Source of the DNA: Eledone cirrhosa | Lineage: Eukaryota | NCBI GenBank assembly: GCA_964016885.1 | Contig: OZ024740.1 | Span: 274,536,001 to 274,600,000 of the forward strand | Reading direction: 5' to 3' | DNA: 64,000 nucleotides | In this document: piece by piece, positions 11,209-60,584 of the stretch | Numbering within the stretch: the stretch's first letter is position 1 | How the letters are laid out: every line of letters starts with the position of its first letter | Made by a program: the position numbers and the translations under genes | Notes under the pieces: generated by a model | Seen by the model: only the letters and a program-made list of their open reading frames with translations | Database searches by the model: none | Told to the model about the DNA's origin: nothing

Positions 11209-11246
11209 ATTTTAACGTTTCAGACGCTAGTCCTTCATCAGAAGAA
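11209..11246 (-). ncRNA. Minimal type-I hammerhead ribozyme motif
   Basis: Minus strand CTGATGA-A-GGAC TAGC GTCT-GAAA-CG-TT with palindromic AACGTT. Stem I is weak. Lies in a short insert between TA tracts. Confidence 0.6.
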
Positions 11247-11672
11247 AGAATGAGAAATAAGATAAATTGAAGGGAGGGGCGGGGTGGAATTGTATGTATA
11301 TATATCATCATCTCACGTCTGCTTTTTCTTGCTTGCACGTGTGGAAAAACAGATGTAAAAAGGATGATGCTATACACACACACATATATATATATATACA
11401 TATTCATTAGTTAAGCAAAACAAGACCACAAACTTCACAAGGAAGACATTATTAAAAGATTGTCAACATATTTTAGTTTGATGTAAGGAATGTAGAGAAT
11501 AATAATAATAATATTAATAATAATAACTAACTCACCAATCTTTCCTCTCATATCTCCTCTACTATCTCCATCTCTCTCTTTAAGATTGGTTACTCTTGAA
11601 CTGTGTATATTTATACACATATATATATCTATTAAATATATATTATATATATAGTACAGAGCTATTTAATTA

Positions 11673-11889
11673 AATAAACAACACAATATAATTATTCCAT
11701 TACCCAAGGTTTCACGAAGTCAGACGAATCTAACAGAGGCATCTGAATCCGTTCATCAGATAGAAATCTTAGAAATTTCTATCTGTTCATCATAAATTTC
11801 TATCTGATGAACGGATTAGATGCCTCTGTTAGATTCGTCTTACTTTGTGAAACCTTGGTTAATGGAATAATTATATTGTGTTGTTTATT
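11673..11889. mobile_element. Fold-back element with two divergent hammerhead ribozymes (11695-11765 minus, 11798-11867 plus)
   Basis: About 95-bp inverted arms. Minus copy: stem I TTCTAT/ATGGAA, CTGATGA, long stem II, GAAAC-CTTGG-GTA. Flanked by TA-rich tracts. Confidence 0.8.
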
Positions 11890-12153
11890 ATATAGTTTTA
11901 TATACATTATATATATATATATACATAGTCCTATATAAACACATAATATCACACTCCCAACCACTATATTAAACAAGCATACATATTAATATAGCGAGAA
12001 TAATAAATCTTCACACATAAAACAGGTATGTAAATGCATAGCTAATATAGGCTCATACACATACACACATACAATTAAAGGGGTAGAGATGCTTATTTCT
12101 AACCATATGTGATGACCTACACACTCATTCATATAGGTAGCATATATAAATAT

Positions 12154-12480
12154 GGGCACATGGCTTACTGGTTAGAGCATTGGCCTTGCAATCGAAAGGG
12201 TGTGAGTTCAATTCTCAGACCGGGTGATGGGTTATTTCCTTGAACAAGACACTTTATTTCACATTGCTCCAGTTCACTCAGCTGTAGAAATGAGATGATA
12301 GGGAGTGGGGTCCATATCATTCCACTACAAAGTGGTTGTGGAGGTGTCACGGCAAAAAAGCACCCAGCACTCACTGTAAATGAGGTTGGTGTTAGGAAGG
12401 GTATCCAGCTGTAGAAATCAAGCCAGAATCAGTTCCCGTCCCACCCTTGCAAGCAGGGAAAAAGCGAACGTAAAATGAAA
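12154..12480 (+). mobile_element. SINE family A
   Basis: Same head, core and RTE-derived tail as 421-742. Confidence 0.85.
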
Positions 12481-13548
12481 TATGAATACATTTACATACA
12501 ATAAGCCACATGGCTACAGATACACAGAGAACAAAATACATAGAACAAAACATAGATGCATATATGACTACTTAAAAAATATCGCCTAAAGACAAACCAA
12601 AATGCCCATTATTTACTTTCCAAGACATACACTTCTCTTTATATATCATTTATGTGTGTGTTTGTGTAGGTATCTAATGATGTATATATATGTGTGTATG
12701 TGTGTTTGGTGTACAAACACATACATACACACACATATGTAAGCATCTCTAACTATTGATATATATATCTGTATATATATATATATATATATATATATGT
12801 GTGTGTGTGTATGTATGTGTGTATATATATACCCACACACACACACACATATATGTGTGTAAATGTGTATGTATGTATATATGTGTAAATGTGTATGTAT
12901 GTATATGTGTGTAAATGTGTATGTATGTATATATATATATATACATATATGTATATATATATATACATTTACACACATATACATATATGTATATGTGTGT
13001 AAATGTATATATATATATATACATATATGTATATATATATATATACATACATACACACATATACATATATATATATATATATATTTGTGTGTGTGTGTCA
13101 GCCATATAATTCATAGACTGTTTATATAACCATAGATTTATAGTTATAAATGAGACTTTAATAGACACAAATCATTTTATTCTTACCCTCAAACCTTGAA
13201 TTTCTATGATGTGTAATATATAAAAATCACAATAACGAATTATAACAAAAACATTGAAAATAAAAGGAAGCACAATAGGAAAAAACAACACCAACAACAG
13301 CAAAAACAATATAATATCTACAAACTTCTTATAAAAAATGGGAATAAAAATATATATCAATATATTGAGAAAATAAATGACAAAAAGAATAATTCCCAAT
13401 CTGATATTAACCTCATTACTGTTAACTTAAATATTATGATGTACATTTTATATCTTATGTAGAGCAAAAGAGGAAAAAAATCTATGTAGAGAAAAATATG
13501 TACATATAGGCAGCGATGGCTGTTTTTCTTCAATCTGACCATACTGAT

Positions 13549-14090
13549 TCATCATCATCATCACCATTTTATGTCCATTTTTCCACGTTATCATGGGTTA
13601 GATGAGTTGTCCTGTTGTGGGCAATGCTAGGTCAGGTGACAATGTCTTGCTAATACAGAACTGATTTTGGCTTGATTTCTACAGCAGACTATTCTTCCTA
13701 AAGTTAACCTCATTTACAGTGAGTACTGGGTGCTTTTTGTCGTGACGCTTACATGACCACTTCACAGTGTCGACTGGGTGCTTTTTGTAGTGACATCTAC
13801 ACGACCACTCTAAAGTGTGGACTGTGTGCTTATAGTCATGACACCTACATGACCACTTTACAGTGTGGGCTGGGGGGCTTCACTGGATGCATACTTTTGG
13901 CCTGTCCTCATCGGAGATGTATTTAAACTGCAGATTTTGGCAATCACTTTTGCATGAGTCACCACAAATTGGTAATTTTCTCAGACTCATGATGACTAGG
14001 CTTTATTATAGGTAGCCTTTAATAACTTTCTTGTAACTATACTTTTGAATAGTGCGAGTATTCCCAAGAACCAACAGTGTCTTTTATTGC
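13549..14090 (-). mobile_element. RTE-derived non-coding element (3'UTR with about 4 tandem units)
   Basis: (cat)n tail and tandem cactgtaaagtggtc...cacgac units as in the RTE 3'UTR. Confidence 0.65.
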
Positions 14091-58520: not shown

Positions 58521-58521
58521 A

Positions 58522-58757
58522 TTTTTTTATTTTTATTTTAATCGATCGACTTTCGTCAAATCGGACCGAGGAAACAATGTTTCCGTTGGTCTTTCCAATT
58601 GCTAGTACTATCTATCGGTCACAACTCCAGGTAGAAGGAGCAACGTGAAATAAAGTGTCTTGCTCAAGGACATAACGCATCGCCCGGTCCAGGAATCGAA
58701 CTCACAACCTCAAGATTGTGAATCCAATTCTCTAACCACTCAGCCACACGCCTTCAC
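58522..58757 (-). mobile_element. SINE with family-A head/core, third tail type and A-rich end
   Basis: tggctgagtggttagag head, gagttcgattcc B box, ccttgagcaagacactt core. The tail also occurs alone at 53662-53710. Confidence 0.7.
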
Positions 58758-58899
58758 ATATATATATATACATACATATATACATATAGATATATACATA
58801 CATACATACATATATATATATACATATATACATATATATATATATATATACATACATTTATATATATATATATACATACATATATATATATATATATAA

Positions 58900-59915
58900 C
58901 TTTGAATAACTTTTAAATGTTTTGGCCAGTATTGGCCCAGGCCATATCTAACTTAATAGCACCACCTGGCAAAGTCTTTCAATTCAGGATTTGGGCACCA
59001 TGGCCCATTCGAGAAGGGAATTACTGTTTGCGGAGACATATCCAGGTGTGGGTGGTTTGTCTGGGATTACTTGGAGGAATTTGTCCAAAGACTTCTTGAA
59101 TTTCGTGTGGTCAGTTTCTGTGTTGACGTGTCCTGGTGTGATGTTGAAGAGAGCAGGGCCAATTGAGGTGAAATAATTGTGCTGTATTATTGTTATGTGT
59201 TGCGATTTAGATTTTTGTTTGGGATGGATAGCACGGGGCCCAAGCTTTAGGTGTATCTTGAATGTGATGCCAACATTATTTGGGCAATGCTGCTGAAACA
59301 TTTTTCACATCATGCAGATAATATAATGCTCACGGCGAGGTTGGAGTGAGTAAACTTTCAGCTTTTTAGTCGACCAAAGTAGTCAAGGGCTGACATGCCA
59401 TCTATCTTTTTCGTGATTGCTCTTTCGGGAGGTTCAAGTTTCATGATACTTTGTTTCGTGTGGGGAGACCACAGTATTCAAGGTGTGGTCGGGCAAGAGT
59501 GGAGAAGAGAAGGATAATTGTGTGAGAATCACTCGACTGGAAGGTTCTGAGGATCCAGGAACACATTCTGCGAGCCATGTCAACTTTGCTGCTTATATGC
59601 GTGGCCCAACTTATGTTGCTGTCCACAGTTACTCCCAAGTGTCTGATGTTGTTAGATGCCACGAAAGTTTCACCGGAGGGAAGGGAGTATGGGAGTTTCA
59701 GAGCATCCTCTTTTCCCAAGTGGATCAGTTCGAATTTGCCTTTGTTCAGTAACATGTTGTTCTTTTCCGCTCATTGGGTAACAGCCAGTAGGTCTGACTG
59801 AGGGTTTATCCAGTCATCCACGCCATTGATGACCTTCTGGAGCTTGGAATCATCAGCGAAAATTATAATGTTGCTGTGTTTGATGATGTCAGTGATGTCA
59901 TTAATTTAGATGATG
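58900..59915 (-). pseudogene. CR1/L2-group LINE, RT C-terminal fragment
   Basis: FADDSKL..KFELIHLG..HLGVTVD..ARPHLEY..YVSANSNSLLEW; frameshifted. Confidence 0.85.
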
Positions 59916-60296
59916 AAGAGAAATAGGCCCAATATAGATACATACATATATATATATATATATATATATATACATACATACATATATATATATATACATA
60001 CATATATATACATGCATACATATATATATACATACACATATATATATATATACATACATATATATATACATACATATATATATATATACATACATATATA
60101 TATATATACATACATATATATATATACACATATATATATATACATACATATATATATATACATACATATATATATATATAAACTCATAAATATACACATA
60201 TATATATTTATATACATATATATATATATATATGTGAAGTAATTCCGTCGGAAAGATCCAGGAAAAAAGAGTGCTCTATGTAGGTTACAGAGCTTA

Positions 60297-60584
60297 ATAG
60301 TTATGTAATAAACAACATAAGGCAATTATTTCATTTACCAGTGGTTTCATAAAAACAAACAAATTTTGCTTTCAATCATCAGAATGAAAAAATCCTGGTG
60401 TATTTATTGACATTGTATTTTTCAGCCTCACTTTCATATAGATTATATTTTTGTTTTTTAAAATCCAATGTCAATAAATACACCAGGATTTTTTCATTCT
60501 GATGATTGAAAGGGAAATTTGTTTGCTTTTAAGAAACCACTGGTAAATGAAATAATTGTCTTATGTTGTTTATTACATAACTAT
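60297..60584. mobile_element. Fold-back element with two intact divergent hammerheads (60329-60389 minus, 60492-60552 plus)
   Basis: About 125-bp arms. Stem I TTTCATT/AATGAAA, CTGATGA, AU/GU-rich stem II, GAAAC-CACTG-GTA. Extra 60-bp tail on the left. (TA)n flanks. Confidence 0.85.

What the first reader, a model, noticed from the sequence alone, without database searches (positions are those of the whole stretch)
11209..60584. A diverse family of (TA)n-embedded, non-coding hammerhead-ribozyme elements
Seen in sequence: about ten short inserts, unrelated to each other outside the ribozyme core, lie in or beside (TA)n tracts and carry a type-I hammerhead topology. Loci: 11209(-), 11695/11798, 15951, 26227/26405, 33319 (half), 40282, 40800, 41272, 53045 and 60329/60492. 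The stems differ in sequence but pair in each case, and stem III is often tiny and palindromic (AACGTT, ACTAGT, CAATTG, AATATT). Established knowledge: minimal hammerheads with palindromic helix III are characteristic of Penelope-like element (PLE) pseudo-LTRs and non-autonomous retrozymes, and cleave mainly as dimers. Inference: this genome hosts many TA-targeting ribozyme retroelement lineages, mobilised in trans, at about one per 6 kb here. No PLE RT or GIY-YIG ORF is present in the window.
Basis: partly seen in the sequence, partly recalled or inferred. Interest (0 to 1): 0.9.

Follow-up and report, generated by a model that had tools for sequence, protein, structure and literature searches.

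The report
Penelope retrotransposon ends carrying hammerhead ribozymes
The ten ribozyme-like inserts are the broken-off ends of several families of Penelope-like jumping genes, plus two small non-coding repeats that likely ride on them, all sitting in TA repeats across this genome; this is a known arrangement, but the youngest intact family has an altered ribozyme core that is predicted to cut poorly.

Summary
The hammerheads are real: 6 descriptor hits in the window against 0.017 in shuffles, and 17 in 390 kb sampled elsewhere (about one per 23 kb, roughly 10^5 genome-wide). All ten loci belong to high-copy dispersed families. Six join Penelope-like element (PLE) RT/GIY-YIG genes in longer copies: 26227/26405 (intact 887 aa), 53045 (intact 830 aa, Hydra clade), 60329/60492, 33319, 15951 and 40800. 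11695 is a relative of 60492; 11209 stayed unlinked. So most are 5'-truncated, often inverted pLTR ends of coding elements, not non-autonomous ribozyme elements. Only 41272 and 40282 are non-coding ~490-bp tandem units of the retrozyme kind. PLE hammerheads, (TA)n targeting, inverted ends, tails and an octopus Hydra element are all in print. Not found in the papers I could read: the youngest intact family and two sister lineages share a derived core, C(C/A)GUUGA instead of CUGANGA, with covarying stems, whereas 12 of 12 hammerheads beside relatives from other organisms keep A6. Copy 5' ends do not pile up at the cut site (3 of 105). Cleavage and expression are untested. The scan noted a related TA-inserted Penelope-type tandem repeat in another genome.

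The parts
11114..11292 (-). 3' end of a high-copy family with a minimal hammerhead (core 11241-11235, helix III ACGT); stem I broken in this copy; no ORF linked
11650..11885 (.). Inverted pair of pLTR ends (11650-11785 minus, with part of the tail; 11794-11885 plus); hammerheads 11695-11765(-) intact and 11798-11867(+) decayed; relative of the 60492 Hydra family
15443..16240 (+). Truncated PLE with a CX2-5CxxC linker (Neptune-like, tentative): inverted 3' piece 15443-15553, internally deleted GIY-YIG remnant 15553-15700, 3' UTR, hammerhead 15947-15998, internal (TA)6, 3' end near 16240
26071..26635 (.). Inverted pLTR pair of the young intact 887-aa PLE (26071-26334 minus, 26333-26635 plus with a 36-nt tail); variant hammerheads 26227-26262(-) and 26405-26440(+), core CCGTTGA; first 8 codons of the ORF at 26608-26631
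33319..33525 (.). Fold-back pLTR end of a Hydra-clade PLE (33319-33383 minus, 33382-33525 plus with an 80-nt tail); 3' half hammerhead, GAAA at 33404, 6-bp helix III, predicted cut after 33426
39949..40442 (+). One ~486-bp unit of a non-coding tandem family (retrozyme-like); hammerhead 40282-40365, predicted cut after 40360
40648..40965 (.). Inverted pLTR pair of an older PLE related to the 887-aa element (40648-40777 minus, 40779-40965 plus); decayed hammerhead 40800-40835 (family core CTGAAGA)
40968..41613 (.). Non-coding ~490-bp tandem-unit family (retrozyme-like): inverted piece 40968-41128(-), unit 41128-41613(+) with octamer at 41187, hammerhead 41269-41311 (predicted cut after 41305) and an internal (TA)n
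52557..53130 (+). 5'-truncated solo end of the intact 830-aa Hydra-clade PLE; hammerhead 53045-53093, core CCGAAGA, helix III ACAATTGT
60233..60584 (.). Inverted pLTR pair of a frameshifted Hydra-clade PLE (60233-60421 minus with a ~65-nt tail, 60419-60584 plus); hammerheads 60329-60389(-) and 60492-60552(+)

Best explanation
The inserts are 5'-truncated, often inverted pseudo-LTR ends of at least six coding Penelope-like element families, plus two non-coding ~490-bp tandem repeats that are likely retrozymes copied by PLE enzymes, each carrying a hammerhead fold just upstream of a fixed 3' end that abuts a TA or CA run. Inferred mechanism: the PLE GIY-YIG nuclease nicks (TA)n; the RT starts at one of two fixed sites 17-215 nt downstream of the hammerhead (hence the one-sided tail), copies backward through the hammerhead and usually stops early; the nascent cDNA often folds back or switches strand, which gives the inverted partner. 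The template is most likely uncleaved RNA, because copies keep the hammerhead whole and their 5' ends are not at the cut site. The hammerheads would act, if at all, as slow, dimer- or protein-assisted ribozymes that process tandem transcripts; in the tandem families this would release unit-length circles. Shown: family structure, ORF links, fixed ends, covariation. Inferred: every RNA-level step.
For: Ten own-genome searches each gave 40 scored near-full matches out of 561-2527 first-look candidates. pLTR-ORF-pLTR with an 887-aa RT + C-terminal GIY-YIG frame in L091, L092, L096; 150 of 150 scored RT matches are >=95% identical and 12 have the full 887-aa frame. Inverted pLTR, pLTR, 830-aa Hydra-type ORF, pLTR in L330; Hydra-type frames before the 60492 and 33319 ends (L331, L332, L334, L335); RT/EN frames before 15951 (L336, L337, L172). 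PLE RT/EN at 47-62% identity 200-300 nt upstream of 40800 in 4 of 25 loci. Fixed distance from cut site to first TA/CA run: 24 of 30 (26405), 19+10 of 30 at two sites (60492), 16+12 of 30 (53045), 6+21 of 27 (33319), 20 of 25 (40282), 21 of 25 (11209), against 3.9 TA runs per kb in sampled DNA. Head-to-tail arrays of 6 and 7 units for 41272, longest ATG frame 67 aa; 42 aa for 40282. Six of 13 pairs change on both sides across the 41272 clan, 92% of cells paired against 75% shuffled (0 of 500) and 22-45% when slid. 3 of 105 5' ends within 3 nt of the cut. Literature: PMC4209133, PMC8557442, PMC11167929, PMC7229834.
Against: 11209 and 11695 were not joined to an ORF of their own (25 and 30 loci with 1.5-kb flanks, plus three longer stretches). 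No sequence link between the two tandem units and any coding pLTR was found, so their mobilising partner is inferred from structure only. Inverted partners were seen in a minority of copies of most families (1 of 25 to 16 of 25; the 15951 count is inflated by a TA run in the probe). The 5'-end test rests on BLAST ends, and 51 of its 105 copies are one family. Clade names come from motifs, not from a tree.
Confidence: 0.9

Rival explanations
1. All ten are non-autonomous ribozyme elements (retrozymes) mobilised in trans.
For: Most copies are short and non-coding; 41272 and 40282 are tandem non-coding units; 11209 has no linked ORF.
Against: Six families run on without a break into PLE ORFs, and 5' extents form a continuous ladder from 46 to >1500 nt as expected from truncation.
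Confidence: 0.07
2. Short fold-back forms (above all the ~205-bp 33319 palindrome) have become independent mini-elements that replicate as a unit.
For: In family 33319, 14 of 37 tail-selected and 20 of 48 chance copies end 31-45 nt upstream of the cut site; 17 hits in 390 kb make it the commonest of the ten.
Against: The centre of the palindrome differs from copy to copy, as expected from independent truncation and fold-back or from hairpin instability; long ORF-bearing copies share the same 3' end.
Confidence: 0.15
3. The motifs are chance matches in AT-rich, palindrome-rich DNA.
For: Rfam reports none; several window copies have broken stems or cores.
Against: 6 against 0.017 in the window and 17 against 0-1 in 390 kb; reversed and 8-mer-shuffled controls 0-1; same position relative to the ORF in relatives from other organisms; covariation.
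Confidence: 0.01

Closest known systems
Minimal hammerheads in the pLTRs of metazoan PLEs (Cervera and de la Pena 2014, PMC4209133; parts 1-2 of 4 and supplement passages read)
   Same: Type I, palindromic helix III, extra nucleotide before stem II, many divergent families per genome, mostly solo motifs from truncated PLEs, pairs on opposite strands 100-700 bp apart, U3-A8 core variant.
   Different: Estimated load here is about 10^5 motifs against 2,000-9,000 reported there (different descriptors, so only roughly comparable); the C(C/A)GUUGA core did not appear in the text or the supplement file searched (file 1 not searched).
Hydra clade PLEs, including Hydra-1_Obim of Octopus bimaculoides (Craig et al. 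2021, PMC8557442; section 11, passages, supplement part 2 of 59 and passages read)
   Same: RWK/RWR, DKT and CxCX5C motifs, (TA)n insertion, inverted 5'-truncated copies, one-sided tail; helix III of Hydra-1_Obim is acca-a-tggt, of 60492 acca-c-tggt; the N-termini of the two ORFs look alike by eye; U-U at the base of stem II as in 41272.
   Different: Repeat length 4.6-4.7 kb here against generally under 3 kb; at least three Hydra families in this window alone, one intact.
Non-LTR retrozymes of animals (Cervera and de la Pena 2020, PMC7229834, passages; Li, Clavereau and Pollet 2026, 10.64898/2026.07.22.740005, part 1 of 5 and passages)
   Same: Non-coding tandem units with one type I hammerhead each, low GC (35%), co-occurring with PLEs.
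   Different: Units of 467-490 bp are at or above the upper end of the 150-450 bp given; the hammerhead is of the PLE type; copies show PLE-like paired 3' ends and inverted partners; the 41272 unit holds a (TA)n inside it; circular RNA not shown.
Poseidon PLE of Anolis (Frangieh et al. 2024, PMC11167929; parts 1-2 of 4 read)
   Same: Tail between two RT start sites in or near the ORF start, AT-rich targets; hammerhead cleavage dispensable for insertion in vitro fits the 5'-end result and the altered core here.
   Different: Other clade; activity here is untested.

Membership tests
EN+ Penelope-like elements (26405, 53045, 60492, 33319, 15951, 40800) | Single ORF with PLE-type RT and C-terminal GIY-YIG nuclease | tested here: met
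   887 aa, Pfam RVT_1 E 1.9e-11 and GIY-YIG E 3e-4 (just under its cut-off); 830-aa frame intact but without a Pfam hit, matched by motifs; others broken or partial
EN+ Penelope-like elements | pLTRs in direct or inverted orientation, 5'-truncated partial tandems | tested here: met
   L091, L092, L096, L330, L331; inverted pairs in the window
EN+ Penelope-like elements | One-sided tail of about 30-40 bp | tested here: met
   36 nt for 26405; longer (about 65, 80 and 165 nt) for 60492, 33319, 53045
EN+ Penelope-like elements | Hammerhead in the pLTR | tested here: met
   core non-canonical in 26405, 53045, 33319
Hydra clade (53045, 60492, 33319) | RWK and DKT motifs, CxCX5C linker, CxxC and CxH near the end, no CCHH | tested here: met
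   RWR/RWK and DKT in 53045 and 60492; CxCX5C and CxxC..CxH in all three; the 33319 N-terminus was not recovered
Hydra clade (53045, 60492, 33319) | Placement in the Hydra clade by RT phylogeny | not tested
   No tree built; reference proteins were seen only in a paper supplement
Hydra clade (53045, 60492, 33319) | Generally short (<3 kb) | tested here: not met
   pLTR-to-pLTR distance 4.7 and 4.6 kb; a tendency in the source, not a strict criterion
Nematis or Neptune clade (26405, 40800, 15951) | Zn-finger-like linker before the nuclease, CCHH in the nuclease, clade placement | tested here: inconclusive
   26405: GPKF, DKG, reduced Cys linker, CCHH; nearest named eukaryotic homologue a nematode protein at 27%. 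15951: CX4CxxC linker. Clade labels partly recalled; no tree
Non-LTR retrozymes (41272, 40282) | Non-coding tandem repeats with a type I hammerhead in each unit | tested here: met
   Arrays of 6-7 units for 41272; partial dimers for 40282; longest ATG frames 67 and 42 aa
Non-LTR retrozymes (41272, 40282) | Self-cleavage and accumulation as circular RNA | not testable with these tools
   No usable RNA run
Active hammerhead ribozyme (26405 lineage) | Core C3 U4 G5 A6 N7 G8 A9 | tested here: not met
   C3 C4/A4 G5 U6 U7 G8 A9 in 37 of 38 segments of 26405 and in 7 motifs at 6 loci of two sister lineages; G5, C3-G8, A9, G10.1-C11.1, GAAA, palindromic helix III and UH are kept

The most novel reading that the evidence does not exclude
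A currently active PLE lineage has kept, across three sub-lineages whose nucleases differ by about 30%, a hammerhead fold with a core (C4/A4, U6) that existing data predict to be crippled, while its stems covary. Either this is an undescribed working core, invisible to CUGANGA descriptors, or the fold has been kept for a job other than cleavage, such as binding the RT or steering the splice site just downstream. With sister family 40800 as a canonical control, it would make the open question of what PLE hammerheads are for directly testable.
Probability: 0.35. Interest if true: 0.6.

Novelty: new member of a known kind. Interest (0 to 1): 0.4.

Why it matters
As a category this is known: PLE pLTR hammerheads and retrozymes. 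Three points are of use. (1) The load, about 1.3 x 10^5 descriptor-complete motifs (95% interval 0.76-2.1 x 10^5) in at least 20 recurring sequence clusters, would be among the larger reported; a 2026 Octopus vulgaris repeat annotation does not mention ribozymes in its main text (PMC13282606). (2) Non-coding tandem units with PLE-type hammerheads, PLE-type paired ends and inverted partners are structural support for mobilisation of retrozymes by PLEs. (3) The derived core in the youngest intact family and the lack of 5' ends at the cut site are natural evidence that cleavage may be dispensable for PLE insertion.

Tried and rejected
Rfam: no hammerhead at gathering score; the E-value run on the whole window listed 150 of 482 matches, all microsatellite-driven; none in 39940-41460. 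A strict descriptor without the extra nucleotide found only 3 motifs. I first read 33319 as a plain tetraloop hairpin; long copies showed a real hammerhead. The idea that copies end at the ribozyme cut was tested and not supported. The idea that 41272 arrays grow by self-insertion into their internal (TA)n was dropped: junctions are continuous head-to-tail. Rolling-circle origin of arrays: units of one array share more minor variants than units of different arrays (0.136 against 0.024, 47 units in 25 groups, permutation p 0.0035), but no variant is shared by all units of an array and later duplication gives the same signal; inconclusive. Expression: no RNA holder listed; the one RNA run laid gave 0 reads and is no test. 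No ORF found for 11209 or 11695. One search used wrong coordinates and was replaced. Searches for prior print: hammerhead ribozyme + octopus, cephalopod + ribozyme, A6U + hammerhead, natural core variants; of these only PMC8557442 covers octopus PLE hammerheads. Lunse et al. on PLE hammerhead variants (PMC5785218) and Coats et al. 1994 (PMC308520) are not held and were seen as titles only; the first may already describe such cores. One requested sample stretch did not exist, so 39 of 40 were used; positions were round coordinates chosen by me, not a formal random draw.
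Full report
Setting. The window lies on contig C1 of G000, a 3.0-Gb genome with 3.9 (TA)n runs per kb in sampled DNA. Its long frames are LINE pieces with RT and PHD domains (the label RTE-like is recalled). The likeness of one family to Hydra-1_Obim suggests an octopus; that is inference.

Observation. 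A relaxed minimal type-I descriptor finds 6 motifs in the window against a mean of 0.017 in 60 local shuffles, and 17 in 39 stretches (389,800 bases) from other places against 0-1 in 10 shuffles. A second descriptor with variant cores gives 16 canonical, 1 C4 and 4 U3-A8 motifs in the sample, with reversed and shuffled controls at 0-1, and 7 in the window. Extrapolated from 17, the genome holds about 131,000 complete motifs (76,000-209,000), one per 23 kb; the window's 6 is not a significant excess (P 0.064). In 1.57 Mb of fetched loci, which are enriched for the searched families, 311 distinct motifs fall in 39 clusters, 20 with two or more members. Window copies of 11209, 11798 and 40800 are decayed; the commonest family copy restores them. 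15951 has a good stem II but weak stems I and III even in its family. Rfam misses all of them.

Families. Each locus has 561-2527 first-look candidates, of which 40 were scored per search; these are lower bounds. 26227/26405: direct repeats 3.45 kb apart flank an intact 887-aa RT plus GIY-YIG frame; the window copy ends 8 codons into that frame and has an inverted partner that lacks a 36-nt tail. All 150 scored RT matches are at least 95% identical and 12 have the full frame, so the family is young. 53045: L330 shows inverted pLTR, pLTR, an intact 830-aa frame with RWR, DKT and CxCX5C, and a pLTR, the marks of the Hydra clade (PMC8557442 section 11). 60329/60492 and 33319 lead upstream into broken Hydra-type frames. 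15951 leads into a broken RT and nuclease with a CX4CxxC linker, and a remnant of that nuclease is in the window. 40800 has RT or nuclease pieces 47-62% identical to the 887-aa protein 200-300 nt upstream in 4 of 25 loci. 11695 aligns with 60492 beyond the cut site. 11209 stayed unlinked. 41272 and 40282 are different in kind: ~490-bp non-coding units in head-to-tail arrays, up to 7 units seen for 41272 and partial dimers for 40282; two more tandem families of 467 and 310 bp turned up in flanks.

Ends. Copies end at one or two fixed distances past the predicted cut and then meet a TA or CA run; in 15951 and 41272 the first TA run is internal and the ends lie further on. Where an inverted partner exists, one arm has the longer end. 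This is the tail that Frangieh et al. traced to two RT start sites (PMC11167929), and tandem or inverted truncated copies and (TA)n bias are standard for PLEs (PMC8557442). 5' ends are not at the cut site: 3 of 105 chance copies lie within 3 nt, 79 further upstream, 23 downstream (51 of the 105 are family 33319). In 33319, 14 of 37 and 20 of 48 copies end 31-45 nt upstream, inside the hammerhead's own stem-loop II; RT pausing and fold-back at that hairpin is my inference.

Selection on the fold. Across seven copies of the 41272 clan, aligned over 200 nt of flank, 6 of 13 pairs change on both sides, 92% of cells pair against 75% shuffled and 22-45% slid; these copies represent only two to three lineages. 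Helix III is self-complementary in all families but 15951, as expected for dimer cleavage (PMC4209133).

The variant core. Family 26405 reads CCGUUGA in 37 of 38 segments. Two sister lineages, whose nucleases are 68-70% identical to it, read CAGUUGA (7 motifs at 6 loci, reversed control 0). Two of four stem II pairs change on both sides, in one event that separates 26405 from the rest (17 of 500 shuffles reach it), and helix III varies between AUAU and AUAUAU. The more distant sister 40800 is canonical, and so, at position 6, are 12 of 12 motifs found in 45 metagenome loci of related PLEs (11 CUGANGA, 1 CCGAAGA; 8 lie just downstream of the ORF). The change is therefore derived and has been kept. 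Perreault et al. report a rate under 0.1 per minute for a natural A6C and a considerable drop for U4C (PMC3088659 passages); a double change would be predicted to be poor. I found no A6U hammerhead in the library but could not read the paper most likely to list PLE variants.

Comparison and verdict. Minimal hammerheads in pLTRs, solo and opposite-strand copies, the U3-A8 variant, Hydra elements in (TA)n with an octopus example and its hammerhead, and PLE-derived retrozymes are all in print. The finding is a rich new set of members of known kinds. Interest 0.4, carried by the variant core, the load, and the tandem units with PLE-type ends.

Noticed in passing
window 41187-41194; L085, L331, L040, L298, L304: An octamer (ATGCAAAT) about 90 nt upstream of the hammerhead is kept in 6 of 7 aligned copies across both sister tandem families; background 0.077 per kb. 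Newt satellite II is said to use an snRNA-type promoter (PMC2220036 passage); that the octamer belongs to such promoters is recalled. Possible internal promoter.
   Followed up: partly
window 26457-26552; L301, L305, L234: A conserved GGTAA donor-like site about 20 nt past the predicted cut and a pyrimidine tract ending in GAG before the ORF start suggest an intron between hammerhead and ORF in the 887-aa lineage.
   Followed up: no
window 60419-60440; L003, L006, L007: Upstream of the 60492 hammerhead, long copies have a microsatellite-rich stretch ending in a strong pyrimidine tract and CAG, like a 3' splice site.
   Followed up: no
L085:2361-2828; L102:2531-3151: Two further non-coding tandem hammerhead families with units of 467 and 310 bp.
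   Followed up: partly
window 39632-39811(-), 61988-62153(-): Further PLE 3' pieces without the hammerhead: one of the 15951 family, one related to 53045.
   Followed up: partly
L185, L199 and others: More families with the U3-A8 core (clusters of 9 and 2).
   Followed up: no
window 14359-14892, 31563-32861, 33720-35213, 47827-49371, 62297-62881: LINE fragments with RT plus PHD domains, and an AP-endonuclease-like piece.
   Followed up: partly
window 13713-13874, 18184-18331, 35553-35784, 61382-61486: A recurring 48-bp tandem unit inside a SINE-like repeat that ends in (GAT)n.
   Followed up: no
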